A stretch of DNA of 39,566 nt. It comes from Dehalococcoidia bacterium. Lineage in GTDB: Bacteria; Chloroflexota; Dehalococcoidia; Dehalococcoidales; UBA1222. The DNA lies in assembly GCA_009776515.1 (NCBI GenBank), contig WRNP01000002.1, positions 1 to 39,566 on the forward strand, read 5' to 3'. The position numbers were made by a program, and so were the translations under genes. Shown piece after piece: positions 2,311 through 31,614 of the stretch (its first letter is position 1; every line of letters starts with the position of its first letter). Below the pieces are notes generated by a model. That model searched no databases. It was given only the letters and a program-made list of their open reading frames with translations, and was not told where the DNA came from.

Positions 2311-3186
2311 ATGAAACAAGAAGAAATCCACAAGACAGTCAGGGAACAGTACGGCAAGATAGCCAAGCAGAGCGGTTCTTGTTGCGGAGAATCTGCCCAG
2401 CAGATTACCAATTGCTGCGGAGCCAACACTGGCGCTGTCGCCGGCATCAGCAAAAAACTCGGATACAGTGACCAGGACCTTAATATGGTGCCCGAAAGTG
2501 CAAATTTAGGTCTCGGCTGCGGTAATCCAGTAGCCCTGGCATCTTTGAAAAAAGGTGAAATTGTCCTTGATCTTGGCTCTGGAGCTGGCTTCGATAGCTT
2601 CCTGGCCGCAGCCAAGGTCGGTACTGCGGGAAAAGTCATCGGCATTGATATGACCGCCGAAATGCTGGACAAGGCCAGGGAAAATGCCCGCAAAGGTAAC
2701 TATACAAATGTTGAGTTCCGCTTAGGCGAGATTGAGAATCTCCCCGTAGCAGACAATTTTGCAGACGTCGTCATCTCTAACTGCGTCATCAACCTCGCCA
2801 GCAACAAACAGAGGGTTTTTGACGAGGCATTTCGGGTCTTAAAACCCGGCGGCAGATTGATGGTATCAGACCTTGTAATTTTAAAAGAACTACCGAGTTG
2901 CATCTTAACCTCAATTGATGCTTATATCGGATGCGTAGCCGGTGCCATGGAGAAAAATGAATACATGGAGACCATCGGCAAAGCGGGATTCGAGGCGGTT
3001 AAAATCATCGAAGAATCGGCATACCCTCTCAGTAGCGCCATGACTGACATTATCTCCAAAGTTACAGCGGATGGCTTGGGGCTGACCGATCAACAGGTAC
3101 AAGATGCCTCGGAATCCATTGCCAGCATCAAGGTTCAGGGAATAAAGCCGGCACCTGAAACGAAAAGCATATCAGGCATGAACTAG
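2311..3186 (+). CDS. arsM: arsenite S-adenosylmethionine methyltransferase
   Basis: It has the SAM-binding motif VLDLGSGAGFD and the ArsM-type cysteines (GSCCGE, NCCGA, GLGCGNP, YIGCVAG). It is adjacent to acr3. Confidence 0.85.
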   Translation: MKQEEIHKTVREQYGKIAKQSGSCCGESAQQITNCCGANTGAVAGISKKLGYSDQDLNMVPESANLGLGCGNPVALASLKKGEIVLDLGSGAGFDSFLAAAKVGTAGKVIGIDMTAEMLDKARENARKGNYTNVEFRLGEIENLPVADNFADVVISNCVINLASNKQRVFDEAFRVLKPGGRLMVSDLVILKELPSCILTSIDAYIGCVAGAMEKNEYMETIGKAGFEAVKIIEESAYPLSSAMTDIISKVTADGLGLTDQQVQDASESIASIKVQGIKPAPETKSISGMN

Positions 3187-16680: not shown

Positions 16681-17669
16681 CCATGGGGAACTACACAGCC
16701 TCCTACCTTACTCTTTTCCGCTCCGGCGAGCTCAATAAGCGTGCCGCACGCCTTGCCGAGAGTCTATCATCCTGTGAGCTTTGTCCGCGCCGTTGCGGTG
16801 CTGTCCGTGCGCAGGGAGAGTTAGGGTTTTGCCGCTCCGGGGTACTCCCAGTTGTCTCTTCTTCTTGTGCCCATCACGGCGAGGAGCCAGTGCTTTCTGG
16901 CACCCACGGCTCGGGAACCATCTTCTTCGGCAACTGCAATCTGCGTTGCGCTTTCTGCCAAAACTATCAGATAAGCCAAGCTCCGGATCGGCAAAAAGTA
17001 AATGAGGTCAGCCTTGAAAGACTAGCGGAGATAATGCTCTCCCTCCAAGCCCAAGGTTGCCACAACATAAACCTCGTCTCGCCCACCCACTTCGTCCCAC
17101 AGATCGTTCAGGCACTAGCGTTGGCCGCACCGCAAGGCCTGAACATCCCTCTGGTCTATAACACCAACGCCTACGATAGCCTGACGACACTACGAGAGCT
17201 TAGCGGTATCATTGATATATACCTGCCAGATCTCAAGTATGCCACAGACGAGAACGCAGAGAAGTATTCTCAAGCTCCAAATTACCCGCAAACAGCGCGT
17301 GCGGCCATAAGGGAGATGTTCCGCCAGGTAGGCATACTAGAAACAGACACCGATGATATCGCGGAGCGCGGTGTAATCGTGCGCCACCTTATCCTACCAC
17401 ACAATGCGGCGGGAACCGAGGAGTCTCTCCAGTGGCTCGCGCACGAAGTCTCGCCTGACATCACCGTAAGCCTCATGAGTCAGTACTACCCCATCCACCG
17501 CGCCACACAGTACCCAGAGCTTGCACGCCCCATCACCGCAGCAGAGCATGCGGTAGCGGAGCGTTCGCTAGCAAAGGCGGGCATTGAGAACGGATGGGTG
17601 CAGGACCCAGCCTCACCAGAAAACTATTTGCCAGACTTCACGCGGCCTGGCCATCCCTTTGGAAGCTAG
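16677..17669 (+). CDS. radical SAM protein (PflX/COG1313-like activase family)
   Basis: It has the CX3CX2C motif GNCNLRCAFCQNYQ and an N-terminal CELCPRRC...FC motif. Confidence 0.8.
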   Translation: MTMGNYTASYLTLFRSGELNKRAARLAESLSSCELCPRRCGAVRAQGELGFCRSGVLPVVSSSCAHHGEEPVLSGTHGSGTIFFGNCNLRCAFCQNYQISQAPDRQKVNEVSLERLAEIMLSLQAQGCHNINLVSPTHFVPQIVQALALAAPQGLNIPLVYNTNAYDSLTTLRELSGIIDIYLPDLKYATDENAEKYSQAPNYPQTARAAIREMFRQVGILETDTDDIAERGVIVRHLILPHNAAGTEESLQWLAHEVSPDITVSLMSQYYPIHRATQYPELARPITAAEHAVAERSLAKAGIENGWVQDPASPENYLPDFTRPGHPFGS

Positions 17670-18034
17670 ATTATTCGCCATTTCGAATTGGTAATGCCAA
17701 TCTAAGGCTAGTAGCTTCAGAAACACCTTGTTTTCGCCCGTAGCTCATGCAAATTACGTTTAAACACCGGATTCTTGCATTGCTGGGCTATACAGACACT
17801 GCTGGTGATAACCGAGAACGGCGGTACCACCTAAGTTTCGGCCTGCTGATAATAATCCCTGCAATCAACAGGCCGTCTTTGCTTCCTCAAGTCAGCGAGG
17901 CGAGTCGTCTCATCTTGGCGCCGAAGCTAAGCTCCAACTCAATCCTCGGCATGCTATGATTAACCTACTTCTTTATTACTACTGCTACCATCCACCACGT
18001 TGCCACTTAGCTGGCAATCAGTGAGGCCGCGGTT

Positions 18035-18370
18035 CTAAAGCGTTATCGCCTGATCTACCCCTCCGACGCTACCGAGGGCACTGTACAGGTCGGGGAAGCA
18101 CCCGATGCCAGCTTTAGATACTAAGCTGTCGGCAATATTGCGCTGGTAACAACACTGGTCACAGCCCATCACCATCATGCCGGTTTTTTCCGCCAAGGCA
18201 TTAATGCGCTGCCCCAACGGGTTATTCTTCTCGATGAGCAAGGTGTTGTCAAACATAAAGAACATGCCGACCACGTTGGCACCATGACGATTATCCTCGA
18301 GTTGTGGCACGATCATCATCGCCAGAATATCAAACGACCTGGGGCTTTCAAAGATGTAAGCAACTTTCAC
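18035..18370 (-). CDS. DsrE/DsrF-like sulfur(selenium)-relay family protein
   Basis: 111 aa. MKVAYIF..., VVGMFFMFDN, MVMGCDQCCYQRNI and VDQAITL fit the DsrE-fold pattern. The gene diverges from the ABC/reductase operon. Confidence 0.55.
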   Translation of the reverse strand: MKVAYIFESPRSFDILAMMIVPQLEDNRHGANVVGMFFMFDNTLLIEKNNPLGQRINALAEKTGMMVMGCDQCCYQRNIADSLVSKAGIGCFPDLYSALGSVGGVDQAITL

Positions 18371-18424
18371 CGATACATTTTCCTTTCAATGTTTTATTTG
18401 CGATGCTTGTGCAAAGCTGCCTTG

Positions 18425-18454
18425 ATAATAGTGGTTCATAAGTTATTTTGTCAA
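18425..18454 (-). promoter_or_regulatory. candidate promoter of the DsrE-like gene
   Basis: On the minus strand: TTGACA (18454-18449), an 18-nt spacer, then TATTAT (18430-18425). It lies within an AT-rich 247-bp divergent region. Confidence 0.5.
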
Positions 18455-18476
18455 TATGGTTAAGTTCTGTTTATAG

Positions 18477-18486
18477 CATGCGCATG
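18477..18486. promoter_or_regulatory. perfect 10-bp palindrome CATGCGCATG between divergent promoters
   Basis: The sequence is self-complementary. It shares the 8-bp core ATGCGCAT with the palindrome at 210-219 upstream of arsR. Confidence 0.3.
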
Positions 18487-18529
18487 GGAAATTGGCCACT
18501 CTTTTGTCAGTAAAAAAACAATTTTTATA

Positions 18530-18558
18530 TTGACATTAAATATTCTTTATTGTATATT
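18530..18558 (+). promoter_or_regulatory. near-consensus sigma70 promoter of the 18.6-26.3 kb operon
   Basis: TTGACA (18530-18535), a 17-nt spacer, then TATATT (18553-18558). Confidence 0.6.
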
Positions 18559-18617
18559 CCTTATGGATTTGATAAGTAAAATTTAATAGCTGGGAATGCT
18601 CAAAGGATGGTGTTTCT

Positions 18618-19466
18618 ATGTCTCAGCTCTGCGTAGAAAGCGTAACCAAGGCTTATGCTAACAACAATAAGGAAAGGCATGTCGTTCTCAGAGATTTAAG
18701 TTTCGGCGTCAGAACGGGGGAGTTCGTATCGTTGCTTGGCCCATCGGGTTGCGGCAAGACAACCATCCTCCGCATCATCGCCGGCTTTTTGAAACCCACA
18801 AGCGGGCGGATTATGATCGGCGATGACGAAGTTACCCAACCCGGCCCTGACCGCGCTTTCGTTTTTCAATCTTATGGGCTGTTTCCCTGGATGACCATCA
18901 AGGCCAATATCCTTTACCCCATGCAGCAACAGAAGATGCCCCAACCAGAGCAGGAACAGCAACTTAACATGTTGCTGGCGTTAGCCAAATTGGAGGGCAA
19001 GGAGAAGCTTTATCCACACCAGCTTTCAGGCGGTATGCAGCAGAGAACAGCAGTAATTAGAGCGCTGGCCTGTCATCCCAAGGTACTCCTAATGGATGAG
19101 CCCCTGGGAGCAGTGGATATGCAGATGCGACACAAGTTGCAGGAGGACATGGAGCGTATCTTTATTGACAGCCCCGCCACCGTGGTCATGGTAACCCATG
19201 ATGTTGATGAGGCAGTGTTTATGAGCAACCGCATCTTGGTCATGTCCGACTGCGAAGGCAAGCTCGCCGGCGACCTGTCTATCCCCCTACCTCATCCTCG
19301 CAACCGCCACAGCCTAGAATATCAACAACTCGTGAGTAAGTTGGGCGACCTATTACAGAATATGCATCACGAAAAGGAAATCAGTGATTGGAACAATATA
19401 AAAAACATTATGGAGGAAATACCGATTGAAAGCAAAGCAGCCGACTGTTGCTGTAATGCCACATAA
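18618..19466 (+). CDS. ABC transporter ATP-binding protein, NitT/TauT (SsuB/TauB-like) family, with a Cys-rich C-terminal tail
   Basis: Walker A GPSGCGKTT, signature LSGGMQQRTAVIRAL and Walker B LLMDEPLGAVD are present. The C-terminus ends ...KAADCCCNAT. Confidence 0.9.
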   Translation: MSQLCVESVTKAYANNNKERHVVLRDLSFGVRTGEFVSLLGPSGCGKTTILRIIAGFLKPTSGRIMIGDDEVTQPGPDRAFVFQSYGLFPWMTIKANILYPMQQQKMPQPEQEQQLNMLLALAKLEGKEKLYPHQLSGGMQQRTAVIRALACHPKVLLMDEPLGAVDMQMRHKLQEDMERIFIDSPATVVMVTHDVDEAVFMSNRILVMSDCEGKLAGDLSIPLPHPRNRHSLEYQQLVSKLGDLLQNMHHEKEISDWNNIKNIMEEIPIESKAADCCCNAT

Positions 19467-19986
19467 TAGAGAGGGGTTCTGTGCACAGGGTAACCGCCCA
19501 AGAGCGCGGCTGAAGATTTGCCTGTTCGCTGTTAGCGCCTACTGTTTGATAATCGCGCTTATGTTAGCTGCTTGCGGCGGCACTTCCGACATACCACTAC
19601 TACCCGGCCTGCCAGAGGCTATTGCTTTTTGGCAAAAGCAGGCACCTGATGACGCATTGGTCTTATCCATCAGCGGCGATATCAACGGCGATCGGCGGCC
19701 TGATACTTTGATTATCTATCGGACACCGAGTGGGGAATGTCTGTTTATTGGCATACTTGACACCATAGATGGTTACCAACTAACAGACACCATCATGGCA
19801 CCGCTGGAAAACCAGGCGATGTTTATCCGCAATATTGGTGGCAACCAGTCTGTGGCAGTTTTCGTGTCGGGACAAAATGGAGATAAAGTAGGCCTTGGCT
19901 GCTTTCAGCTTATCGGAGCAGAGTGGATTAATCCGTTTGGCGGGGGAATTTTCGATGGCGATTATGCCGCTTGTTGCGGCTTATAA
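19456..19986 (+). CDS. hypothetical lipoprotein with an FG-GAP-like DxNGDxxxD motif
   Basis: The signal peptide has the lipobox LMLAAC. The motif ISGDINGDRRPD is present, and the C-terminus ends ...AACCGL. The start is uncertain (ATG 19456 or TTG 19426). Confidence 0.55.
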   Translation: MPHNREGFCAQGNRPRARLKICLFAVSAYCLIIALMLAACGGTSDIPLLPGLPEAIAFWQKQAPDDALVLSISGDINGDRRPDTLIIYRTPSGECLFIGILDTIDGYQLTDTIMAPLENQAMFIRNIGGNQSVAVFVSGQNGDKVGLGCFQLIGAEWINPFGGGIFDGDYAACCGL

Positions 19987-20232
19987 CGCTAAGTACCACT
20001 TGATGGAAGCGCTCATGCGCAATATAGACGCGGGATATTGGACTCGCTTGGCGTAAGTTGGGCGACTTACTCAAAATAGGTTGCCCGAAAAGAAAGGTGG
20101 TGCCCGGAACAATGCAGAAATTTCTTAATGTCAATACCGGTCGAGCGCAACAACGGCCGATTGTTGTTAAGGTGCCACATAAGTGTGGCATATCAAACAA
20201 AAATAAAATGTCTAACAGAAAGAGAGGCTATC

Positions 20233-21420
20233 ATGGGTACACCAAATAATGGCATCTATGCCAAGTCCGGCGGGTTATCACGCCGGGAATTTCTGAAAGA
20301 TGCCGGGCTCATTATCGGCGGTGCCGCTATAGGATCTATGACTTTCTTGAATTCCTGCAAAGGATCTGATGAGCCAACGGGCTCAAGCTCTGGTGTAACA
20401 ATGGATCCTTACACTGTCAATCTTCTTTACTACAATTGTGATCACATGACCCCTGGCCCCATTGGTTATGACCTTGGCATTTATCGTGAACTGGGTGTCA
20501 ACGTCAACATCAGCGGCAATGGCAATGTTCCAACCGCCTTCGCGGCCGGGCAGGGTGACATCGGCTATGTTGGAGTGGGTAACATTGAGATAGCTGCCGC
20601 TGGTGGTGCTCCGCTGACAGTGGTAGCCGACAATTTCCTAGGTGGCTCTTATTATTTGGTAGTCGCCAACAACATTGAATCTCCGGAGGAACTACTTGGC
20701 AAACGCCTAGCATTAGGAGACCGGCCAGAAATCAACAACTCCAGCTGGGTAGCGATGGCCAATGCTCTCGACCTGCCCATTGAGGGGGATAATTACCAGA
20801 CGTCCAGCATCTCCGGTGACTCCAACAAATTTCTGGCTTTGGCTGCCGGTCAGATTGACGGCTATACCTGCTGTGACCCCTGGGGGTCTATGGCAGTGTA
20901 CGAGAAAATAGGCAAGGCCATGGGTACTTTCCTTGACGTTTTACCCGGAAACCAAAAAGCCGATTGTTGCGGGCTGACCATGAATGATTCATTCATCAAA
21001 AACCACCGCGCGTTGGCCGTAAAAATGGTGCTAGGCCATACCCGGGCAATTGAAGCCATGTATATCCACCCCCTCAAGAGTGCGCTCAGTTTCGCTAAAA
21101 CCTATGGTGTGCCGCTTGAGGTAGCCATGATGACCGTCTACCGCAAGACCAATGGCGAAGGACGCATGATGACTTGGGATATGCACACTGAGCCGAATAT
21201 TGTAACCAGGCTCGATAACACTTTTAACTACTACAAAGACATAGGCATGACCCAGTACCAAACATTGGTTCCCGCCACAACATTCGTCGACTCAACACTA
21301 CTGGATGAATGTGGGGCCAACGATTTTAATACATTTATCACAACCCAGGTTGATCCGGTGTACCCGCTGGGCATGTCATACGATGACTGGTACAAAAAGG
21401 CTCTAGAGACGGATGTCTAG
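20233..21420 (+). CDS. Tat-signal lipoprotein, ABC substrate-binding protein (NMT1/SsuA/TauA-like)
   Basis: ATG 20233 follows AGAGAGG. It has the twin-arginine motif SRREFLKDAG and the lipobox FLNSC. The periplasmic-binding-fold sequence contains two vicinal Cys pairs (YTCCDPWG and KADCCGL). Confidence 0.8.
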   Translation: MGTPNNGIYAKSGGLSRREFLKDAGLIIGGAAIGSMTFLNSCKGSDEPTGSSSGVTMDPYTVNLLYYNCDHMTPGPIGYDLGIYRELGVNVNISGNGNVPTAFAAGQGDIGYVGVGNIEIAAAGGAPLTVVADNFLGGSYYLVVANNIESPEELLGKRLALGDRPEINNSSWVAMANALDLPIEGDNYQTSSISGDSNKFLALAAGQIDGYTCCDPWGSMAVYEKIGKAMGTFLDVLPGNQKADCCGLTMNDSFIKNHRALAVKMVLGHTRAIEAMYIHPLKSALSFAKTYGVPLEVAMMTVYRKTNGEGRMMTWDMHTEPNIVTRLDNTFNYYKDIGMTQYQTLVPATTFVDSTLLDECGANDFNTFITTQVDPVYPLGMSYDDWYKKALETDV

Positions 21421-21721
21421 CCTCAGGCACCTTGGGCAGCGAGCAATGACAGAAAGCGCAACGGGCAGCTTTTCTTCGAATTGCCATTATGCCAACTTCC
21501 GACTAGCTTTGGCGCGATGGGGAGGGCAATATGTCACGACCCGCCCGGTGCCTCTCTTGACGAAAGAGCGCCCTGGTCGCCTTTCTATACCATATACCAG
21601 CAATATCGTTTTCTGGAACTGGGCAACAAGTAAGCTAGCGACCACTTGTGATCTAGACTGCTGTGGCTTTGGACTGACCGGCAATCACATAGCAAGCCGT
21701 GAGCGCCAGGGAGGAGTGTGA
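21413..21721 (+). CDS. hypothetical 102-aa ORF filling the binding-protein/permease gap
   Basis: The ATG overlaps the upstream stop (ATGTCTAG), and the ORF fills the whole ~300-nt gap. It contains CDLDCCGFG. I recognise no domain and the composition is atypical, so it may be non-coding. Confidence 0.3.
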   Translation: MSSLRHLGQRAMTESATGSFSSNCHYANFRLALARWGGQYVTTRPVPLLTKERPGRLSIPYTSNIVFWNWATSKLATTCDLDCCGFGLTGNHIASRERQGGV

Positions 21722-21724
21722 TTC

Positions 21725-22567
21725 GTGGAATCAGAACCGCGTCCGGTTTTTAATGCCAGTGCAACATTTGAAAAGCTGAAAAATACGGTCCTCGTTGGCG
21801 ATCGCGGGCGCCGCTTTCCTCAGCTTCACTGGCTGATAACGTTAGGTGTGATTTTCATAATTTGGCAGATGGCAGCCATGCGTTTCAACAACAAACTGCT
21901 GATGCCAACTCCTTGGGCTACCATTCAAGCTCTGGCATCCGCCGTGCATGATGCCGAGATACTGCAAGGTCTTGTTTACACCATGAGGCGCATCCTCATC
22001 GGGTTCTTGCTCGCCTGTGCCATAGGTTTGCCCCTTGGCTTTGCCATGGGGTATTCCAGGACTTTTCTTAAGTTCCTTGACCCCATTATCAACTCCGTCC
22101 GCCTAATCCCGATGATGGCATGGGTTCCCTTGAGCATCGTATGGTTCGGCTTGGGAGATGGTCCTTCCGTTTTCATGATTACCTTGGTTGGTATCTTCCC
22201 CATCATGCTCAGCACCATCGCCGGTGTACACGAAATTTCCCCCGACTATTACCATGCCGCACGCAGTATGGGCGCTTCGCGGTGGGGCATTTTTCGCAAT
22301 GTCATTATGCCGGGGTCACTGCCCGGTATTTTAACAGGCCTGCGCCTGGCGCTGGGAAATGGGTGGATGGCCGTCATATGAGCGGAGTTCATTGCCACCC
22401 AGTTTGGGTTTGGCCACGCAATGGTTTGGTACCAAACACTGCTTCGGACTGACATGGTGATGGCGCTAATGATTATGGCAGGTATGATCGGCTTCACCAT
22501 CGACCGCAGTATGCTGTTTCTCAATCGCAAGGCATCCAAGTGGAAATATGTTCAGGCCGCTGAATAG
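21725..22567 (+). CDS. ABC transporter permease (TauC/SsuC-like) interrupted by an in-frame TGA at 22379-22381
   Basis: GTG 21725 lies 8 nt after GGGAGGAG. The same frame continues past the TGA as AEFIATQFGFGHAMVWYQTLLRTDMVMALMIMAGMIGFTIDR..., the expected C-terminal part of a BPD-type permease. Total length is 280 codons. Confidence 0.75.
22394..22414 (+). other. stem-loop 13 nt downstream of the TGA at 22379 (candidate SECIS-like element)
   Basis: GCCACCC (22394-22400) pairs with GGGT..GGC (22406-22414) with a 2-nt bulge; the loop is AGTTT. Folded by eye only. Confidence 0.2.
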
Positions 22568-22579
22568 GGAGGAAGCATC

Positions 22580-23776
22580 ATGATTAATCCGTCAACACTT
22601 GAAGAGTACACCCAGTTAAGGCCCACCAGTCTAGAGGCATTTGAAATGCTACGGCGTGACAATGCCTCTATCCTGCTCCGTGAAAAGGAAAAGGGCAAGC
22701 GCATCATCGGGGCATATTGCACCTATTTCCCCCGCGAATTGGCCCAGGCCATGGGGGCCATCTATGTCGGTTTATGCGGCACTATTGATGCCCCGATTGC
22801 CGCTGCAGAGAAAGATCTGCCGCGCAATCTATGCCCTCTGATCAAATCTTCATACGGACTAGCTATAACCGACCGCTGTCCCTATTTCGTCATGGCCGAC
22901 ATGATCATCGGTGAAACCACTTGCGACGGCAAGAAGAAGATGTTTGAATTACTCAGCGAAAAGGGCTTAAAAAACATCTACGTCATGCACTTGCCGCAAG
23001 TACCGGATGAACCATCGTCGCTGGCGCTGTGGATATCCGAGTTACGTCGCCTGAGGACGTATCTCGAAAGCACCTTTGGGGTCACCATCACCGACGAGTC
23101 GTTACGCGAAGCCATCCATCTCACCAACGAGGAGGCCCGTGCCCGCCAGGCTATGTTCGACCTCAATAAACGCAAGCCGGCGGTACTCTCTGGTATGGAT
23201 ATGGTCAACATCACTTTTCTGACCGGATTCCAAGCCGACCGCCAAGAATCGATCCGCATGGTAGATGCCGTTACAGCAGAACTAACGGAAAAAGCCAATA
23301 ATGGGTATGCGGTGGGCACGCTCTTAACCAAGCGCATCCTATTAACTGGCACCCCCGTAGGTATCGGAAACGAAAAGGTGGTAAAGCTGGTGGAAGAAGC
23401 TGGGGCGCTCATCGTCGCCAAGGAGACCTGCGGCGGCTACAAAACCGTTGGGTTGCGCATTGATGAAAACGACCCCCGTGATCCAATCGTGCTATTAGCC
23501 GAAAAATACCTCAAGATCCCATGTTCGGTGATGTCTCCAAACGGTGACCGCCTGGGGCTACTGGAACGCATGGTGAAAGACTTCCAAGTCGATGGCGTAA
23601 TAGACCTGACATGGCAGGCCTGCCACACCTATAATGTAGAATCTTACGCCGTCGCCAAACTTGTTGAAGAAAAGTTAAGGCTGCCGTTCCTGCACTTAGA
23701 AACGGACTATTCCCAGTCAGACACAGAAACGCTCAGGGTGCGCATTGAGGCGTTTTTGGAAACCATTAATAACTAA
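22580..23776 (+). CDS. 2-hydroxyacyl-CoA dehydratase / benzoyl-CoA reductase B/C-family protein (single-subunit, double-cubane-cluster-protein-like)
   Basis: 398 aa with the family's scattered Cys ligands (AYCTYFP, GLCGT, NLCPLIK, DRCPYF, ETTCDGKKK, ETCGGYK, IPCSV, QACHTYN). It is followed by a cognate activase. Confidence 0.8.
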   Translation: MINPSTLEEYTQLRPTSLEAFEMLRRDNASILLREKEKGKRIIGAYCTYFPRELAQAMGAIYVGLCGTIDAPIAAAEKDLPRNLCPLIKSSYGLAITDRCPYFVMADMIIGETTCDGKKKMFELLSEKGLKNIYVMHLPQVPDEPSSLALWISELRRLRTYLESTFGVTITDESLREAIHLTNEEARARQAMFDLNKRKPAVLSGMDMVNITFLTGFQADRQESIRMVDAVTAELTEKANNGYAVGTLLTKRILLTGTPVGIGNEKVVKLVEEAGALIVAKETCGGYKTVGLRIDENDPRDPIVLLAEKYLKIPCSVMSPNGDRLGLLERMVKDFQVDGVIDLTWQACHTYNVESYAVAKLVEEKLRLPFLHLETDYSQSDTETLRVRIEAFLETINN

Positions 23777-23787
23777 AACCTTGTAGC

Positions 23788-23865
23788 CGCTTAGTTTATC
23801 AGACACCATCATAGGCAATGATGTTTGCAGCTATTATGGTGTTGGCGCACCTGATAAGCTAAGCG
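23788..23865 (+). other. long intergenic hairpin (15-bp stem) inside the operon
   Basis: CGCTTAGTTTATCAG (23788-23802) pairs with CTGATAAGCTAAGCG (23851-23865). All 15 positions pair in plus-strand RNA, one as a G-U pair. The 48-nt interior has its own 7-bp helix, 23803-23809 with 23836-23842. Confidence 0.5.
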
Positions 23866-23956
23866 ACGGCCAATACTGGTTGCTGGTAGCTAAAAACGGC
23901 GCGCCGCACAGTATACTCAAAAAAAATATAGCGATCCTACATAACAAAGGCGGGTT

Positions 23957-24232
23957 ATGAATAATGCAGAGATAAAAAGATGGGCATACCATGGTGACAG
24001 CATCATAATTTTCACTGAGCCATACGAAACCATCAGGGCTAATAAGCTACTACAGTCCTTTGGATTAGATGCCAAAATCGTATCACCGCACCCAAAATTG
24101 AGAATGGGCTGCTGTGCGCTGGGGCTGGAAATCAGCCTAACACAAAAAGCAGACATTGAACTTCTTTTTAAAAACCATGATATTGGTTATCACCAAATAA
24201 TAGAAAACCACGCAATGGGACACGGATCTTAG
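23957..24232 (+). CDS. DUF3343-family small protein (Pfam family annotated, from memory, as putative Se/S carrier-like)
   Basis: 91 aa. IIIFTEPYETIRANKLLQSFGLDAKIVSPHPKLRMGCCALGLEI fits the DUF3343 pattern, with its conserved Cys-Gly-type loop here as GCC. Confidence 0.6.
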   Translation: MNNAEIKRWAYHGDSIIIFTEPYETIRANKLLQSFGLDAKIVSPHPKLRMGCCALGLEISLTQKADIELLFKNHDIGYHQIIENHAMGHGS

Positions 24233-25003
24233 ATGCTTGTCTCAGGATTGGACGTGGGATCGCGCACCATCGCCCTGGTCGAATGGGATGGTGTCCAGGT
24301 GGTGCGAGAGGAGGTTGTCTTCACCGGCACCAGCCCGCTGGAAAATTCTCAAAAACTCACCAGGGGACGGCACTACGATCGTATGATAGCCACGGGCTAC
24401 GGTCGTCACTTCATCACCGAACATAGCTTGGCAGACGGCGTCATAACCGAAATCAAAGCCTATGCCCTGGGTGCCAAACAGCTTTTTCCCGATGCCCACA
24501 CCGTACTAGATATCGGCGGGCAAGATAGTAAAGTCATCCTGATGAGTGGCAACGGCAACGTTATCAAGTTTGAAATGAATGACCGCTGCGCTGCTGGCAC
24601 AGGGCGATTCTTGGAGAACATGGCTTCTGCTCTCGGCCTGAGCGTTGCGGAGTTGGGGGTCCACGCATTGCGTGCCGAGAAAAGTATCCCCCTTTCCAGC
24701 ATGTGCACCGTTTTCGCCGAAAGCGAAGTCGTTTCACTGATTGGGCAAGGCGCAGACAGCCACTGTGTGGCGCTTGGTATTCATGAGGCTATTGTTAACC
24801 GGATTAATGCAGTCGTACAAAGAGTCGGAATAAATCCTAGTTTCGTATTCGCCGGAGGGGTGGCTTACAACCCATGCATGCGCAAGTTGTTGGCCGAAAA
24901 ACTATGCCCTGAAATAAATGTCCCGTCCGACCCCCAGACCGTGGGCGCACTGGGGGCAGCTATCCAAGCACAAAACGATCTGCAGAAAGGACAGGCGTCA
25001 TGA
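24233..25003 (+). CDS. BcrA/BcrD/HgdC-type ATPase activase (CoA-substrate-specific enzyme activase family)
   Basis: It has the acetate/sugar-kinase-fold motifs GLDVGSRT and LDIGGQDSKV, and the two cluster-bridging cysteines NDRCAAGTG and SSMCTVFAES. It starts directly after the upstream stop and overlaps the next gene in an ATGA junction. Confidence 0.9.
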   Translation: MLVSGLDVGSRTIALVEWDGVQVVREEVVFTGTSPLENSQKLTRGRHYDRMIATGYGRHFITEHSLADGVITEIKAYALGAKQLFPDAHTVLDIGGQDSKVILMSGNGNVIKFEMNDRCAAGTGRFLENMASALGLSVAELGVHALRAEKSIPLSSMCTVFAESEVVSLIGQGADSHCVALGIHEAIVNRINAVVQRVGINPSFVFAGGVAYNPCMRKLLAEKLCPEINVPSDPQTVGALGAAIQAQNDLQKGQAS

Positions 25004-26034
25004 CATATTGGAGCGATGCCCTGGGCCGAGCTTGGAGTTTCCTCGCCGCATTTTTCTCGCCGGGAGTAGTCGTCGGACTTTGTTTTGCCTTTCTCCTGGC
25101 CGGAGCTATCAATATTTTCATCCCAAAATCCCTAGTAATAAAATACCTTGGAGATGGTTCCAACAAATTCCTGGCCTACTCCGTGGTCATCATAGCAGGA
25201 ATACTGCTCTCAGTCTGATCATGCACTGCTATACCGCTGTTCAGCAGTATTCGTAAACGTGGAGCCGGCCTGGGGCCAGCCATAGCCTTTTTACTGGCAG
25301 CCCCCGCGCTGGATATCGTCCCCATAGTACTTACCTTCAAGGTGATGGGTACGGTTATGGGTTGGATGCATGTACTGGGCGTAGCTGCCTTTAGTGTCAT
25401 CATGGGTTTTGCCATGCAAGCCATTTTCCGAGAAAGCCCCGAGGCATCTGCCACTAAGCTCGCGGCTGTACCTGATACCGAGATTGCTAAGCCATGGTGG
25501 ACTCACAGTATTTTTTTCGGGCTATTGATATTGGCTCTGGTCTTTGCTCTTGATGGAAACTGGCTCGCCTTAGGATGCGCCCTGATAACCTTGCTCGCTG
25601 TCCTGTTCCGTTTATATTCCAAAGAGGACTGCAAGGCATGGATTGGCGCTTCCGGCCAATTCATCAGAAGTATATTGCCATGGCTGTTGATTGGTTCCGT
25701 AGGAGCCGCCATCGTGGCCGGACTCTTGCCAAGCGCCCTGGTGCTCAGGCTGGCCGGCGGCAGCTCTCTGCAGTCTTCATTCACAGCTTCGTTTCTCGGC
25801 ACTCTACTTTATGTTTGCCCTCCCTCTGAGGTAATGTTCGCCAGGGCATTTGTTGACCTCGGTATGGGCATGGGGCCGGCTCTGGCTTTCCTGATCACGG
25901 CACCTGCTATTTCATTGCCTAGTATCATAATACTGAATCGCGTCATTGGATGGAAAAAAACTTTGACAAACACCATAATGTTAATATGCCTGGCGGCCCT
26001 GCTCGGTTTCGTACGCGGGTTTATAGTAGCATGA
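25000..26034 (+). CDS. ArsP/DUF318-family permease with an in-frame TGA at 25216-25218 on the first Cys of the CSC motif (probable selenoprotein)
   Basis: The two ORF-track pieces (25000..25218 and 25342..26034) are in the same frame, and no other stop lies between them. The read-through gives ...IIAGILLSV-U-SCTAIPLFSSIRKRGAGLGPAIAFLLAAPALD. This is the family core motif, which I recall as vCSCg.vP....G...g.a.aFL.a.P. The protein's own second half has Cys at the equivalent spot (YVCPPSE...GMGPALAFLITAPAIS). Confidence 0.75.
25225..25248 (+). other. stem-loop 7 nt downstream of the TGA at 25216 (candidate SECIS-like element)
   Basis: ACTGCT (25225-25230) pairs perfectly with AGCAGT (25243-25248). 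The 12-nt loop is ATACCGCTGTTC. Folded by eye only. Confidence 0.25.
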
Positions 26035-26047
26035 CCCAGGAGGAAAT

Positions 26048-26311
26048 ATGGTAACCATCAGGGTGTTTACCTCAATCCCCAGCTGACCATCGTGTGACTC
26101 GGAAGAGAAAAAGGCTCGCCGCGTCGCCTCAAAATTCCCCGTCGGGGAAGTACAAGTACTCACTTTCACAGCTATGTCTGAAGAGGGGGAGAAATACAAC
26201 ATTTTCCTTACTCCCGCAGTCATGGTGGATGACCGGATCATTTCTGCAGGGAAAGGCATATCTGAAAAAGAAATAGAAAAGGCAGTAGGCCAAGTAATAA
26301 ACAGAGTTTGA
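26048..26311 (+). CDS. thioredoxin-fold protein (redox-active disulfide protein 2 / MTH895-ArsE-like) with TGA at the first position of the CxxC motif (UxxC, probable selenoprotein)
   Basis: It is missing from the ORF track because of the TGA at 26084-26086. AGGAGG lies 4 nt upstream of ATG 26048. The translation is MVTIRVFTSIPS-U-PSCDSEEKKARRVASKFPVGEVQVLTFTAMSEEGEKYNIFLTPAVMVDDRIISAGKGISEKEIEKAVGQVINRV. The spacing of beta1-CxxC and the ...TPAvmvdg..i..G..s..EI tail matches the ~80-aa family. Confidence 0.7.
26094..26127 (+). other. composite stem-loop 8 nt downstream of the TGA at 26084 (candidate SECIS-like element)
   Basis: GTGAC/GTCGC, CGG/CCG and GAG/CTC helices are separated by small internal loops. 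The apical loop is AAAAAGG. Folded by eye, and weak. Confidence 0.2.
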
Positions 26312-26331
26312 TCCGTGAACCAGGATCAAAC
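26306..26331 (+). terminator. hairpin at the operon end (9-bp stem, no T tract)
   Basis: GTTTGATCC (26306-26314) pairs with GGATCAAAC (26323-26331). The hairpin overlaps the stop codon of the thioredoxin-fold gene. Confidence 0.4.
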
Positions 26332-26448
26332 CAAGGGGATTGTTAGGAAACCAAGATTATCTGCGGGTGAAAGCGTCCCGCTTTTTGCCTGTCGAGTTAA
26401 CCTACAGACGACATGATTGATTAGTGTCCGATGATATCACAAAACAAC

Positions 26449-26474
26449 ACCGAGAGGCTCAATGGCCTCTCGGT
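26449..26474 (-). terminator. intrinsic terminator for the small minus-strand gene
   Basis: ACCGAGAGGC (26449-26458) and GCCTCTCGGT (26465-26474) form a 10-bp stem. On the minus strand it is followed by GTTGTTTTGTG. Confidence 0.6.
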
Positions 26475-26509
26475 ATGCCTGTCACTGAATAGCCTACGGC
26501 AGATTATAA

Positions 26510-26725
26510 CTAACAGGCTTTACGCTTGCGACGCACAAAATGAAATTCAATACGGCGACCATTACGGGGAGTCCCCTGCTTGGCGGTGTTTTCGATAAAG
26601 GACTTCATTTCTTCTGGGGTAAGTTGATCACCTTTTTTCGGTTCGGCTTTGGCTGTTTTTGGCAAGGTGGCACTCCGTCTGTATAGAATTGACTCTATTA
26701 TAGCAGGACCCAAGTCCGCTGCCAA
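26510..26725 (-). CDS. small basic hypothetical protein
   Basis: A terminator lies downstream. A better-supported start is the TTG at 26665, 7 nt after GGAG, giving the 51-aa product MPKTAKAEPKKGDQLTPEEMKSF...RRKRKAC. I recognise no family. Confidence 0.35.
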   Translation of the reverse strand: MAADLGPAIIESILYRRSATLPKTAKAEPKKGDQLTPEEMKSFIENTAKQGTPRNGRRIEFHFVRRKRKAC

Positions 26726-27001
26726 ACAGGATCAGTAAATCCTTGGGTGACGTCCATCCTGCCACAATTATCGCGGAGAGGATCTGCGCATAACAGGCTA
26801 TCCTACCCTCGCAGGGCAACGCTCATGAAAAAGACAGGTGTAATCAAGATCATGGATTAATAATATGCGCTCCGGCAAGTGACCATGACGATGCGATGGC
26901 AATAATTGGTAGCCCAGATCCCCTAGATAGCGAACGGTGGTGCCGTCCGTAGTGGACTGGGCAGGAAATACTCCAGCCATGGATGACAAGACTGCATATG
27001 A

Positions 27002-30753: not shown

Positions 30754-31365
30754 ATGGTTGCAGAAAAAAGTACCGGTTCCGGTCAAAGAATTACCGCCAC
30801 CATCACCGATTTAACTGCAAACCCAGCCCCACTAGGCCTCATGGGTTTCGGCATGACGACAGTTCTGCTAAACATCCATAATGCGGGTTTCTTTCCGTTA
30901 AACGCCATGATTTTGGGGATGGGGATCTTTTATGGCGGTATAGCGCAAATCATCGCCGGGATTCTGGAATCGAAGAAAAACAACACTTTTGGAACCACTG
31001 CCTTCGCCTCATACGGCCTATTCTGGTTATCATTGGTAGCTATCTGGGTCATTCCCAGCTTCGGCTGGACAGCAACTGCCAGCTCGGGAGCGATGGCTAC
31101 TTACCTTTTTATGTGGGGACTTTTTACCCTACTCATGTTTATAGGCACACTTAAACTAAATAGGGCACTGCAGGTCGTCTTCGGTTCTCTAGCGATACTC
31201 TTTTTCCTCTTATCACTAGGCAATGCCACTGGCATTGAGACGCTTACTAGAATCGCCGGTTATGAAGGAATCTTCTGCGGCCTCTCCGCCATCTACACAG
31301 CCATCGCCCAGGTCTTGAATGAAGTCTATGGCAAAGTCATCTGGCCAATCGGTCCTATCAAATAA
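30754..31365 (+). CDS. GPR1/FUN34/YaaH-family acetate/succinate channel (SatP-like)
   Basis: It has [18 protein letters not shown] and six TM segments. Confidence 0.85.
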
Positions 31366-31551
31366 GCCCGAGACAGAACCCAGCCATTTCTTCCTTCAAC
31401 CCCGCCATCGCTTATGTGTGTAGTAGATGCCACTTTCTTTGTGCGAGTACCCCCCAACAAGAGGAACGACTCGGTAGTTTATCAAAAACGGTCCGTTTTC
31501 GACTTCGTGCCTATTGCGACATCTTAAAAACGCAACCAGATGCCCCACCCC

Positions 31552-31580
31552 TTGACGCCAGAGCGAATCCGAGTAATAAT
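31552..31580 (+). promoter_or_regulatory. candidate promoter of the cytochrome gene
   Basis: TTGACG (31552-31557), a 17-nt spacer, then AATAAT (31575-31580). Confidence 0.35.
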
Positions 31581-31614
31581 ACTCCTTACCGAACACTTGA
31601 TTAAGGAGGGTGAT

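What the first reader, a model, noticed from the sequence alone, without database searches (positions are those of the whole stretch)
18035..26331. Candidate selenoprotein-containing uptake/reduction/export island built around a double-cubane-type reductase
One near-consensus promoter (18530-18558) and tight gene junctions (ATGA and stop-ATG overlaps) tie these plus-strand genes together:
- a NitT/TauT-type ABC importer: an ATPase, a lipoprotein, a Tat-lipoprotein binding protein and a permease;
- a single-subunit HgdB/BcrB-family Fe-S protein;
- a DUF3343 protein;
- an HgdC/BcrA-type ATPase activase;
- an ArsP/DUF318-type permease;
- a thioredoxin-fold protein.

A DsrE-like gene diverges from the same AT-rich control region.

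Three of the genes need an in-frame TGA to be decoded, and two of those TGAs replace conserved redox cysteines.

Together these suggest one function. The cell would import a thiophilic chalcogen or metalloid substrate (an S, Se, As or Te species). An ATP-driven low-potential reduction would follow. Sec/Cys carriers would then hand off or export the product. I know of no characterised system with this composition. The functional reading is inference only.
Basis: partly seen in the sequence, partly recalled or inferred. Interest (0 to 1): 0.9.

Follow-up and report, generated by a model that had tools for sequence, protein, structure and literature searches.

The report
Selenoprotein transport-reductase island, SAO variant
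This is a real ten-gene inserted island in an uncultured Dehalococcoidia genome, with three selenocysteine-containing proteins around an ATP-driven iron-sulfur reductase; it is a new variant of the SAO system that was described by computation in 2022-23 and still has no known substrate.

Summary
The three in-frame TGAs (22379, 25216, 26084) are very probably selenocysteine codons. They recur in independent assemblies with conserved downstream reading frames, and an all-Cys relative has Cys at each site. Each is followed by a hairpin, and TGA is an ordinary stop elsewhere in the window.

The island is not unprecedented. NCBIfam models name SaoA, SaoX and SaoP above cut-off, and SaoD and SaoC just below it. 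The reductase is an NF040772 double-cubane protein. Haft & Gwadz (2022 preprint; J Bacteriol 2023) described this SAO system, its link to double-cubane proteins and the same import, reduce, export model.

What is new:
- The host is Dehalococcoidia.
- SaoB and SaoL are absent.
- The reductase, a DUF3343 protein and the activase sit inside the operon.
- A Sec-containing ArsP_1 permease and a UxxC thioredoxin replace SaoE and SaoT.
- Sibling genomes have an empty site, so the block is an 8.8-kb insertion.

Related loci add selenium-metabolism genes (YedF, an SclA-like desulfurase, DUF3343, YedE). This makes a selenium or other chalcogen substrate about as plausible as a metal or metalloid. No function has been tested.

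The parts
17665..26440 (.). Block present in the window but absent from sibling Dehalococcoidia contigs (about 8.8 kb insertion between the radical-SAM gene and a conserved hairpin/small gene next to fpg)
   Evidence: blastn against L162, L163 and L164: homology stops at 17664 and resumes at 26441/26451, while the siblings have only about 60-90 nt there. G+C is 50.0% against 55.3% and 54.4% in the flanks.
18035..18370 (-). DsrE-related SaoD-like protein (111 aa) with CxxCC and a further Cys
   Evidence: NCBIfam NF040732 SaoD scores 157 bits, just under the cut-off of 169. It is 76% identical to the L001 copy. The motifs GCDQCC and GIGCFPD are visible.
18371..18617 (.). AT-rich divergent control region with promoter-like sites on both strands (+ strand 18530-18558, - strand 18454-18425)
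   Evidence: each site matches 11 of 12 positions. G+C is 30.8%. A TTGACA-based site sits at the matching place in L001.
18618..19466 (+). ABC transporter ATPase SaoA (282 aa; the tail ends CCCNAT in this copy only)
   Evidence: NF040729 scores 369.4 bits, above the cut-off of 360. Pfam ABC_tran.
19426..19986 (+). SaoC-like lipoprotein (lipobox LAAC; DxNxDGxxD motif; C-terminus CCGL). The likely start is the ATG at 19456.
   Evidence: NF040734 scores 70.6 bits, under the cut-off of 80. Family alignment A2 has a near-invariant C-terminal CC. AlphaFold2 model with pLDDT 84.
20053..20182 (.). Degenerate copy of the 3' end of saoA inside the SaoC-SaoX spacer
   Evidence: blastn: 68% identity over 133 nt to 19336-19466, E = 5e-5. 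Repeat families D2 and D8.
20233..21420 (+). SaoX substrate-binding lipoprotein with a Tat signal (SRREFLK...LNSC) and two CC motifs (TCCDPWG, ADCCGL)
   Evidence: NF040735 scores 401.8 bits, above the cut-off of 300. TAT signal TIGR01409. Pfam NMT1/NMT1_2. The start matches the gene call in L161.
21725..22567 (+). SaoP ABC permease, a selenoprotein (280 aa, GTG start, Sec219 at TGA 22379-22381)
   Evidence: NF040733 'ABC_perm_U' scores 346 bits, above the cut-off of 295. The TGA is conserved in L001, and L081 has Cys there. Closest solved relatives are NrtB (8w9m) and CmpB (9u9z).
22394..22414 (+). SECIS-like hairpin after the SaoP UGA (apical loop GUU, with its G at position +24)
   Evidence: It is identical in L001 except for one loop base. 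The stem is weakened in the Cys-form L081.
22580..23776 (+). Double-cubane-cluster ([8Fe-9S]-type) reductase (398 aa)
   Evidence: NF040772 scores 488 bits, above the cut-off of 350. phmmer gives E = 1e-76 to DCCP structures 7yyl and 6eno, with all seven motif Cys aligned (C47, 66, 85, 115, 284, 315, 348).
23957..24232 (+). DUF3343 / Se_S_carrier small protein (91 aa, motif MGCCALG)
   Evidence: Pfam PF11823, E = 8.7e-8. Orthologues occur in L001 and L169. The conserved Cys column is shown.
24233..25003 (+). ATP-dependent activase (HgdC/BcrA/DCCP-R type)
   Evidence: TIGR00241 scores 216.7 bits, above the cut-off of 125. PDB matches: MbdQ, HadI, HgdC and DCCP-R 7yyl_E (E = 6e-45).
25000..26034 (+). 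ArsP_1-family permease, a selenoprotein (344 aa, Sec73 at TGA 25216-25218 in a U-S-C motif; second motif VCPPSE)
   Evidence: Pfam PF03773, E = 2.7e-52. It falls below the SaoE cut-off (87 against 325) and the SO_0444 cut-off (94 against 300). The TGA is conserved in L001 and L169, and L081/L170 have Cys there.
25231..25250 (+). SECIS-like hairpin after the permease UGA (loop GUUC at positions +24 to +27)
   Evidence: L001 has a perfect 8-bp stem with loop GGUC. An A-U pair in the window and L001 becomes G-C in L169, a change on both sides of the stem. The stem is disrupted in the Cys-form L081.
26048..26311 (+). Thioredoxin_3-fold protein, a selenoprotein (87 aa, U-P-S-C, Sec13 at TGA 26084-26086)
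   Evidence: Pfam PF13192, E = 1.8e-10. The Sec aligns to the first Cys of CPHC in MJ0307 thioredoxin 1fo5. The TGA is conserved in L001 and L169, and L081 has CPSC. SaoT model: only 16 bits against a cut-off of 65.
26094..26127 (+). SECIS-like hairpin after the thioredoxin UGA
   Evidence: The outer stem is kept through U-G to C-G and C-G to U-G changes in L001. The inner stem is extended in L169.

Best explanation
The block is a horizontally inserted, reduced variant of the SAO ('selenocysteine-assisted organometallic') system. It is fused into one plus-strand gene string with its partner double-cubane reductase.

**Shown by sequence**
- A NitT/TauT-type ABC importer: SaoA ATPase, SaoP permease with a selenocysteine in the pore-lining helix motif, and the Tat-lipoprotein binder SaoX with two Cys-Cys motifs.
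- A Cys-Cys-tailed lipoprotein, SaoC.
- A divergent DsrE-like protein, SaoD.
- A seven-Cys double-cubane protein with its ATP-dependent activase.
- A DUF3343 Cys carrier.
- An ArsP_1 permease with a U-S-C motif and a U-x-x-C thioredoxin-fold protein.

**Inferred mechanism**
1. SaoX and SaoC capture a small solute carrying a soft, thiol-seeking atom outside the cell.
2. A SaoP dimer and SaoA import it, holding it on Sec or Cys ligands.
3. The activase uses ATP to push low-potential electrons into the double-cubane protein, which reduces the solute.
4. DUF3343 and SaoD carry the product on cysteines.
5. The Sec permease and its Sec thioredoxin partner export or hand on the soft-atom product.

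**Substrate.** It is unresolved. I put roughly equal weight on a selenium or other chalcogen species and on a metalloid or organometal(loid).
For: **Family assignment**
- SaoA, SaoX, SaoP and the double-cubane protein score above NCBIfam cut-offs. SaoD and SaoC score just below.
- The published SAO description has the same parts and the same link to double-cubane proteins plus activase. In 21 of 52 species a double-cubane gene lies within 5 kb of the SAO locus.

**Conserved gene order**
- L001/L172 carry the same order at 55-82% identity.
- The L081/L170 type carries the same order at 46-68% identity over the eight shared proteins other than SaoC (32%). There SaoD lies between the reductase and the activase.
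- 17 of 160 double-cubane loci have SAO genes nearby.

**Selenocysteine**
- The TGAs are conserved in independent assemblies.
- A relative has Cys at all three sites.
- Each TGA is followed by a hairpin with compensatory changes.
- TGA is a normal stop in 7 of 31 window genes.

**Reductase and activase**
- All seven cluster Cys align to structures 7yyl and 6eno.
- The activase matches DCCP-R and HgdC.

**Insertion**
- Sibling contigs have an empty site.
Against: - No experiment exists for any SAO system or for the physiological substrate of any double-cubane protein.
- SaoB and the MerB-like SaoL are absent from the window. The published description says SaoE is never found without SaoP, SaoA, SaoB and SaoX.
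- The permease and the thioredoxin fail the SaoE and SaoT models.
- Three spacers of 180-304 nt, and an internal promoter-like site at 23606-23635, leave room for more than one transcript.
- Export, rather than uptake, by the ArsP_1 permease is assumed by analogy.
- Selenocysteine machinery could not be checked. The window holds no sel genes and no tRNA.
Confidence: 0.7

Rival explanations
1. Selenium (chalcogen) trafficking. The island imports a selenium- or sulfur-containing species. The double-cubane enzyme reduces it to the selenide or persulfide level. DUF3343 and SaoD act as Se/S carriers toward SelD or other acceptors. No metal is involved.
For: - DUF3343 (Pfam 'putative Se/S carrier') sits between the reductase and the activase.
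- The L081/L170/L171 relatives continue into an SclA-like cysteine desulfurase, a DUF3343 gene and YedF. YedF scores 225 bits on TIGR03527, above the cut-off of 110.
- In L169 and the P0124 contig, a YedE-type transporter stands in for the ABC importer next to SaoC, DUF3343, the permease and the thioredoxin.
- Among 160 double-cubane loci, 39 have YedF, 24 have DUF3343 (16 of them within 16 nt of a reductase or activase gene), 14 have an SclA-like gene, and 51 have at least one of these or YedE.
- Haft & Gwadz report that 955 of 970 double-cubane proteins lie in SelD-positive genomes.
- Lin et al. 2015 list a dehydratase subunit and an activase among the STRING partners of YedE, YedF and DUF3343.
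- The importer belongs to the nitrate/sulfonate/bicarbonate family.
Against: - The sister locus and the L169 type carry a MerB-like lyase. L169 also has an ArsR-type regulator with a CCVC site. Both point to a metal or metalloid.
- ArsP_1 relatives with known function export methylarsenite (C. jejuni ArsP); the SO_0444 branch is named a Cu/Zn efflux family.
- A selenium-uptake system that itself needs selenocysteine is awkward, although Sec-containing YedE-family transporters are catalogued.
- YedF, SclA and YedE are not in this window.
Confidence: 0.3
2. Organometal(loid) metabolism or detoxification, as in the original SAO model or an arsenic-type reading. An organomercurial-, organoarsenical- or similar compound is imported, reduced by the double-cubane enzyme and split by a MerB-like lyase. 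The soft metal(loid) is then expelled by the ArsP-type permease.
For: - CC and CU motifs recur throughout the system, and a MerB-like SaoL with Sec is present in L001/L172 and L169.
- The permease belongs to the ArsP_1 family. C. jejuni ArsP exports methylarsenite, and the SO_0444 branch is annotated as Cu/Zn efflux.
- L169 has an ArsR-family regulator with a CCVC site.
- This is the published model.
Against: - The window itself lacks SaoL and SaoB.
- The window island holds no metal-sensing regulator.
- The neighbours of double-cubane genes are far more often selenium-metabolism genes than metal genes.
- The ars operon at 292-3186 is 15 kb away and outside the inserted block.
Confidence: 0.3
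3. Two or three unrelated modules (an importer, a reductase pair, a permease-thioredoxin resistance pair) merely lie side by side with no shared pathway.
For: - The modules occur separately elsewhere. The permease, thioredoxin and DUF3343 occur without any reductase or ABC importer in L169.
- Most double-cubane loci have no SAO genes.
- Long spacers separate some window genes.
Against: - The same three modules are joined in the same order in L001/L172 and in a closely similar order (SaoB added, SaoD in place of DUF3343) in L081/L170/L171 and the P0166 contig, down to 32-68% protein identity in L081.
- The whole block moved as one insertion.
- The Cys/Sec-rich theme runs through all the modules.
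Confidence: 0.1
4. The in-frame TGAs are assembly errors, pseudogene lesions or a reassigned codon, not selenocysteine.
For: - Automatic gene calling splits all three genes.
- No Sec machinery is visible in the window.
- Hairpin energies are not better than those of shuffled sequence.
Against: - The same three TGAs appear in separate assemblies (L001, L169) with conserved downstream protein sequence.
- L081/L170 have Cys at each site.
- The permease hairpin shows a change on both sides of the stem.
- TGA ends 7 of 31 confident genes in the window.
- SaoP is a curated selenoprotein family.
Confidence: 0.03

Closest known systems
SAO (selenocysteine-assisted organometallic) system of Clostridioides difficile, C. 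botulinum, Syntrophobacter and others (Haft & Gwadz, bioRxiv 10.1101/2022.07.06.499078; J Bacteriol 2023)
   Same: - SaoA, SaoX and SaoP (with Sec at the same permease position) score above NCBIfam cut-offs.
- SaoD-like and SaoC-like proteins are present.
- An efflux-type permease and a thioredoxin-fold protein are present.
- A double-cubane protein and its activase adjoin.
- The host is anaerobic.
- The same import, reduce, export logic applies.
   Different: - No SaoB and no SaoL in the window.
- The permease is a different ArsP_1 branch and carries Sec. SaoE is reported never to carry Sec.
- The thioredoxin is MJ0307/MTH895-like with UPSC, not the CxCC SaoT.
- SaoC ends CCGL, not CC.
- The reductase, DUF3343 and the activase lie inside the operon.
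- The host is Dehalococcoidia, which is not among the groups the preprint names in its text (its species table was not read).
- The block is an insertion, whereas the authors saw no sign of mobility.
Double-cubane cluster protein DCCP with its reductase DCCP-R of Carboxydothermus hydrogenoformans (PDB 6eno, 7yyl)
   Same: - E = 1e-76 by sequence.
- All seven motif cysteines align.
- A partner ATPase of the HgdC/BcrA type is present.
   Different: - Only about 40% identity.
- It is embedded in a transporter and carrier operon.
- The cluster type and substrates were not tested here.
- DCCP itself has only artificial substrates (acetylene, hydrazine, azide).
ArsP methylarsenite efflux permease (Campylobacter jejuni) and SO_0444-family Cu/Zn efflux transporters (Pfam ArsP_1)
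   Same: - Same Pfam family.
- The C-S-C-type motif is present in the first half.
- U-S-C selenoprotein forms are already catalogued in the SO_0444 branch.
   Different: - It scores far below the SO_0444 and SaoE models.
- It is paired with a Sec thioredoxin and DUF3343.
- No transport data exist.
YedE / YedF / DUF3343 / selenocysteine-lyase gene group proposed for selenium metabolism (Lin et al. 2015, PMC5322559)
   Same: - DUF3343 is in the island.
- YedF, an SclA-like desulfurase, DUF3343 and YedE occur in the related loci L170/L081 and L169.
- A dehydratase-family subunit and an activase are already listed as STRING partners in that paper.
   Different: - The window has only DUF3343 from that group.
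- That paper did not recognise the dehydratase-like genes as double-cubane reductases, and it did not link them to an ABC importer.

Membership tests
SAO system (NCBIfam NF040727-NF040736) | SaoA ATPase (NF040729) | tested here: met
   369.4 bits, cut-off 360.
SAO system | SaoP permease with Sec or Cys at the conserved helix position (NF040733) | tested here: met
   346 bits, cut-off 295. The TGA lies at residue 219. L001 also has TGA there and L081 has Cys.
SAO system | SaoX binding lipoprotein with CC motif (NF040735) | tested here: met
   401.8 bits, cut-off 300. Motifs TCCDPWG and ADCCGL are present.
SAO system | SaoB second binding protein with CU/CC motif (NF040727) | tested here: not met
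   tblastn with the L081 SaoB finds nothing in the window (best E = 1.4). The same query finds SaoB in 12 other loci. The homologous SaoB of L170 scores 232.8 bits on NF040727.
SAO system | SaoL MerB-like lyase with CU motif (NF040728) | tested here: not met
   There is no match in the window to the L053 or L001 SaoL. It is present, with a TGA, in the sister locus L001/L172. Haft & Gwadz note that SaoL is not universal.
SAO system | SaoC lipoprotein ending Cys-Cys-COOH (NF040734) | tested here: inconclusive
   70.6 bits, cut-off 80. A lipobox is present. CC is followed by GL. Other family members end CC, CCD, CCL, CCE or CCGI.
SAO system | SaoD DsrE-like protein with CxxC(C) and a third Cys (NF040732) | tested here: inconclusive
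   157 bits, cut-off 169. The motifs are present. The L170 copy also scores below cut-off, at 164.8.
SAO system | SaoE efflux permease (NF040736) | tested here: not met
   87 bits, cut-off 325. The gene is a different ArsP_1 branch with USC.
SAO system | SaoT thioredoxin-like protein, CxCC/CxUC/UxxC (NF040730) | tested here: not met
   16.4 bits, cut-off 65. The best matches are MTH895/ArsE and MJ0307-type thioredoxins. The UxxC motif form is shared.
Double-cubane [8Fe-9S] reductases (NF040772) | HMM score and seven-Cys motif | tested here: met
   488 bits, cut-off 350. The seven Cys align to 7yyl and 6eno. Two spacings differ slightly from the published pattern (X18 instead of X19, and X30 instead of X32-34).
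Double-cubane [8Fe-9S] reductases | Partner ATP-dependent activase | tested here: met
   TIGR00241 scores 216.7 bits. The match to DCCP-R 7yyl_E is E = 6e-45. The two genes are 456 nt apart with DUF3343 between them.
Double-cubane [8Fe-9S] reductases | Actual [8Fe-9S] cluster and ATP-coupled reduction | not testable with these tools
   This needs purified protein and spectroscopy.
Bacterial selenoproteins | In-frame UGA with coding continuation, conserved in orthologues | tested here: met
Bacterial selenoproteins | Cys-containing homologues aligned at the UGA | tested here: met
   L081/L170 have Cys at all three sites. The Sec of the thioredoxin aligns to Cys in 1fo5.
Bacterial selenoproteins | SECIS hairpin just downstream of the UGA | tested here: inconclusive
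   Hairpins with a G-containing loop near position +24 are conserved, and the permease hairpin has one change on both sides of the stem. Folding energies are not better than those of shuffled sequence. No model exists for Chloroflexota SECIS elements.
Bacterial selenoproteins | selA, selB, selC and selD in the genome | not testable with these tools
   None is in the 39.6-kb window. The rest of the genome is not available.
ArsP methylarsenite efflux permease | Pfam ArsP_1 fold with a Cys motif in the first half | tested here: met
   PF03773, E = 2.7e-52. The motif is SV-U-SC.
ArsP methylarsenite efflux permease | Efflux of trivalent organoarsenicals | not testable with these tools
   This is a functional assay. 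The known example is described in PMC6205960.

The most novel reading that the evidence does not exclude
The double-cubane enzyme in this island, and in many other double-cubane loci, may be the missing low-potential reductase of bacterial selenium (chalcogen) trafficking. The proposed route has five steps:
1. A thiol/selenol-lined importer brings in a selenium species. The importer is SaoXPA here and YedE in the L169-type cassette.
2. The ATP-driven double-cubane protein reduces it.
3. DUF3343, SaoD and YedF carry the product.
4. An SclA-like enzyme and SelD use it.
5. The Sec permease and thioredoxin pair removes the excess.

This would give double-cubane proteins a physiological role. It would also recast 'SAO' as a chalcogen pathway rather than an organometallic one.
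Probability: 0.3. Interest if true: 0.8.

Novelty: new variant of a known kind. Interest (0 to 1): 0.5.

Why it matters
Two questions are open: what SAO systems carry, and what double-cubane proteins reduce in cells. This locus does not answer either, but it narrows both.

- **A compact version still holds together.** SAO works without SaoB and SaoL, with the reductase wired into the operon.
- **It moves as a unit.** Whole-block insertion argues that the parts form one pathway.
- **It extends the host range.** The system now reaches Dehalococcoidia.
- **A selenium route becomes testable.** The relatives join the system physically to YedF, an SclA-like desulfurase, DUF3343 and YedE.
- **There is a practical handle for experiments.** The all-Cys relatives (L170/L081) can be expressed without selenocysteine machinery.

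Tried and rejected
- **RNA searches.** An Rfam scan and a tRNA scan of the window found nothing.
- **Long spacers.** They have no detectable homology to SaoB, SaoL or any fetched locus. The only match is the degenerate saoA 3' copy.
- **Insertion scars.** No integrase, transposase or long direct repeat marks the insertion. The only repeat is 9 nt, TTAACCTAC at 17960 and 26397, with a chance probability of about 0.27.
- **More close relatives.** A metagenome scan with the reductase found no relative closer than 65% identity.
- **SaoC homologues.** The word-indexed protein search with SaoC returned only the query itself.
- **SaoC structure.** A single-sequence AlphaFold2 model was useless, at pLDDT 38. 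The alignment-based model (pLDDT 84) has no significant PDB match. The best hits are two-blade beta-propeller lectins at E about 0.1.
- **Plasmids.** SaoX has no match in PLSDB plasmids.
- **Papers.** The J Bacteriol and mSystems papers are not held, so the preprint was used.
- **MetI gating residue.** The sequence-only alignment of SaoP to MetI places the Sec 3-5 residues from Met163. That is too imprecise to confirm the 'gating residue' claim.
- **Codon reassignment.** Rejected, because TGA is used as an ordinary stop.

Full report
**What is there**

| Coordinates | Strand | Gene |
|---|---|---|
| 18035-18370 | - | DsrE-related protein |
| 18618-19466 | + | ABC ATPase |
| 19426/19456-19986 | + | lipoprotein |
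| 20233-21420 | + | Tat-signal binding lipoprotein |
| 21725-22567 | + | ABC permease |
| 22580-23776 | + | HGD-D family protein |
| 23957-24232 | + | DUF3343 / Se_S_carrier |
| 24233-25003 | + | BcrAD/BadFG activase |
| 25000-26034 | + | ArsP_1 permease |
| 26048-26311 | + | Thioredoxin_3 protein |

- The promoter-like site at 18530-18558 matches 11 of 12 consensus positions. A mirror site for the divergent gene lies at 18454-18425. The region between them is 30.8% G+C.
- Five junctions are tight. Three spacers of 246, 304 and 180 nt are not, and they shrink to about 40-50 nt in the sister locus.
- The first spacer holds a decayed copy of the 3' end of saoA.

**The three TGAs**

They lie at 22379 (permease, VI-U-AEF), 25216 (ArsP_1 permease, SV-U-SC) and 26084 (thioredoxin, U-PS-C). 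Five lines of evidence make selenocysteine the only reasonable reading.
1. The same TGAs, with conserved protein sequence after them, occur in a Dehalococcoidia MAG contig (L001, identical to L172). For the permease and the thioredoxin they also occur in an unrelated metagenome contig, L169.
2. A relative with the same gene order (L081/L170) has Cys at all three positions. The thioredoxin Sec aligns to the first Cys of CPHC in structure 1fo5.
3. Each TGA is followed by a hairpin.
   - Two of them place a G-U-containing loop at about position +24, as in the E. coli fdhF element (from established knowledge of that element, not tested here).
   - The ArsP_1 hairpin is a perfect 8-bp stem with a GGUC loop in L001.
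   - The ArsP_1 hairpin shows an A-U to G-C change on both sides of the stem in L169.
   - The ArsP_1 hairpin is disrupted in the Cys form.
4. TGA ends 7 of 31 confident genes in the window, so the codon is not reassigned.
5. The permease family is a curated selenoprotein family, NF040733 'ABC_perm_U'.

There are two caveats. The hairpin energies are not better than those of shuffled sequence. The Sec machinery cannot be checked, because the window holds no tRNA and no sel genes.

**What it is**

NCBIfam scores the proteins as follows.

| Protein | Model | Bits | Cut-off |
|---|---|---|---|
| ATPase | SaoA | 369 | 360 |
| Binding protein | SaoX | 402 | 300 |
| Permease | SaoP | 346 | 295 |
| DsrE-like protein | SaoD | 157 | 169 |
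| Lipoprotein | SaoC | 71 | 80 |
| HGD-D protein | NF040772 double-cubane | 488 | 350 |

These are the parts of the SAO system of Haft & Gwadz (bioRxiv 2022; cited in a 2026 review as J Bacteriol 2023). That work already reports three things:
- a selenocysteine at a pore position in the permease;
- a strong link between the SAO locus and double-cubane proteins with their activase, which lie within 5 kb in 21 of 52 species;
- a model of import, reduction by the double-cubane enzyme, lyase action and efflux.

The seven cluster cysteines of the window protein align to the solved DCCP structures at E = 1e-76. The activase matches DCCP-R, HgdC and HadI. No experimental follow-up was found.

**How this copy differs from the described system**

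- SaoB and the MerB-like SaoL are absent, and no remnant is detectable. The sister locus L001/L172 does carry a TGA-containing MerB-like gene next to SaoD.
- The permease fails both the SaoE model (87 against 325) and the SO_0444 model (94 against 300), and it carries Sec. SaoE is reported never to carry Sec.
- The thioredoxin is not SaoT (16 against 65).
- SaoC ends CCGL.
- The reductase, DUF3343 and the activase lie between the importer genes and the permease.
- The host is a Dehalococcoidia. The best named GltX homologues are 64-74% identical and come from Dehalococcoidia or Chloroflexota MAGs, apart from one labelled Acidobacteriia/Terriglobia. The preprint does not name this group in its text.

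**It is an insertion**

- Contigs of sibling genomes (GltX 76-82% identical) keep the order gltX, radical-SAM gene, fpg, polA. They have only about 60-90 nt where the window has 8.8 kb, from 17665 to 26440.
- The block is 50.0% G+C against about 55% in the flanks.
- In L001/L172 the island has a different neighbour, a carboxyltransferase gene.
- L172 comes from the same sample as the window. Two versions of the island therefore coexist there.
- No mobility gene or convincing repeat marks the ends.

**Related architectures and what they suggest**

Three layouts share the permease-thioredoxin pair.

| Type | Loci | Gene order |
|---|---|---|
| A | window; L001/L172 | see the table above |
| B | L081/L170/L171; a Sec form on the P0166 contig | SaoA-C-X-B-P, double-cubane, SaoD, activase, permease, thioredoxin. 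L081/L170/L171 continue with an SclA-like cysteine desulfurase, DUF3343 and YedF; the P0166 contig goes straight to a TusA-domain, YedF-like gene. |
| C | L169; the P0124 contig | SaoD, a YedE-type transporter, SaoC, an ArsR-family regulator with CCVC, DUF3343, Sec permease, Sec thioredoxin and a MerB-like protein. No ABC importer and no reductase. |

YedF there scores 225 bits against a cut-off of 110.

Across the 160 double-cubane loci fetched:
- 39 have YedF within 8 kb, at a median distance of 1.9 kb;
- 24 have a Pfam-confirmed or HMM-detected DUF3343, and in 16 of them it lies within 16 nt of a reductase or activase gene;
- 14 have an SclA-like gene;
- 51 have at least one of these or YedE;
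- 17 have SAO genes.

Haft & Gwadz report that 955 of 970 double-cubane proteins lie in SelD-positive genomes. Lin et al. 2015 list a dehydratase subunit and an activase as STRING partners of YedE, YedF and DUF3343. Together these tie this reductase family to selenium handling at least as strongly as to metals.

Pointing the other way are the MerB-like lyase, the ArsR-type regulator and the ArsP_1 family itself. C. jejuni ArsP exports methylarsenite. The substrate stays open. The loci sampled are phylogenetically clustered, with many Syntrophomonadaceae, so the counts are not independent events.

**Most likely mechanism**

Only the parts list and their motifs are shown. The remaining steps are inferred.
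1. A small solute with a soft atom is caught by SaoX and SaoC outside the cell.
2. It is passed through a SaoP dimer whose Sec sits in the helix motif that reads 'vaAE' in NrtB and CmpB.
3. It is reduced in the cytoplasm by the double-cubane enzyme, charged by the ATP-driven activase.
4. The product is held on DUF3343 and SaoD cysteines.
5. The soft-atom product is exported or passed on by the USC permease with its UxxC thioredoxin.

I give 0.7 to 'one SAO-type pathway of this shape'. Within it I give about 0.3 each to a selenium or chalcogen substrate and to a metal(loid) or organometal(loid) substrate. I give about 0.1 to unrelated modules and 0.03 to artefact.

**Side result on SaoC**

- The family is tiny, with 84 hits in 1.84 billion representatives. 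About a third of those are large repeat proteins that match only the DxNxDGxxD segment.
- An alignment-based model is confident (pLDDT 84). It is mostly beta-strand, and its weak PDB hits are two-blade beta-propeller lectins. It has no significant match in the PDB.

**Verdict**

The finding is real and well observed, and the selenoprotein calls are correct. The system is already described computationally and is built into a public annotation library. I rate it a new variant of a known kind, with interest 0.5.

Noticed in passing
window 292-3186: An arsenic-resistance cluster made of an ArsR-ArsC fusion, an ACR3 arsenite efflux pump and an ArsM arsenite methyltransferase. It lies about 15 kb upstream of the island, outside the inserted block.
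   Followed up: no
window 20053-20182 versus 19336-19466: The SaoC-SaoX spacer contains a decayed copy of the 3' end of saoA (68% identity over 133 nt, E = 5e-5). This hints at an old duplication or insertion around saoC.
   Followed up: partly
window 21421-21724 and 23777-23956: Two further spacers of 304 and 180 nt have no detectable homology. They are absent from the compact sister locus L001. A promoter-like site lies at 23606-23635, and a weak terminator-like hairpin lies at 21724-21741, over the SaoP start.
   Followed up: partly
window 26441-26729: A strong hairpin (26447-26476) and a 71-aa minus-strand ORF (26510-26725) are conserved at 65-73% amino-acid identity in sibling contigs. 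This looks like an unannotated small gene next to fpg, and it marks the right edge of the insertion.
   Followed up: partly
L001 791-1339 (minus strand); L169 5502-6150: The MerB-like (SaoL-type) genes carry in-frame TGAs in motifs that differ from the published CU: F-U-A in L001 and L-U-C in L169. The coding sequence continues for about 45-50 residues after the TGA.
   Followed up: partly
L169 (whole) and the P0124 contig: A recurrent cassette without a reductase or an ABC importer. It holds SaoD, a YedE-type transporter (split, probably by Sec codons), SaoC, an ArsR-family regulator with CCVC, DUF3343, the Sec permease, the Sec thioredoxin and a MerB-like gene.
   Followed up: partly
L001-L160 (double-cubane loci): Double-cubane and activase genes are often directly followed by selenium-metabolism genes. 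YedF is in 39 of 160 loci, DUF3343 in 24 (16 within 16 nt of a reductase or activase gene) and an SclA-like desulfurase in 14. This linkage is commoner than the SAO linkage, which is seen in 17 of 160 loci.
   Followed up: partly
L172 versus L001 and the window: L172 comes from the same ENA sample as the window and is 100% identical over 9,002 nt to the NCBI MAG contig L001. The sample therefore holds two island versions that are about 70-77% identical in DNA, one with SaoL and one without.
   Followed up: yes
window 19426-19986 (SaoC): SaoC has near-invariant Asp residues in a DxNxDGxxD motif that it shares with FG-GAP/VCBS-like repeat proteins. An AlphaFold2 model (pLDDT 84) has no significant PDB match (its best, weak hits are two-blade beta-propeller lectins). 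The family has only 84 detectable relatives in 1.84 billion representatives.
   Followed up: yes
window 19440-19466 (end of SaoA): SaoA in this copy ends ...AADCCCNAT. This triple-Cys tail is not present in L001 or L081.
   Followed up: no
window 31540-32964: A multihaem c-type cytochrome gene is conserved next to polA in the sibling genomes. An acetate-uptake transporter gene (30754-31365) is present only in the window, so it is a second small insertion or deletion relative to the siblings.
   Followed up: no
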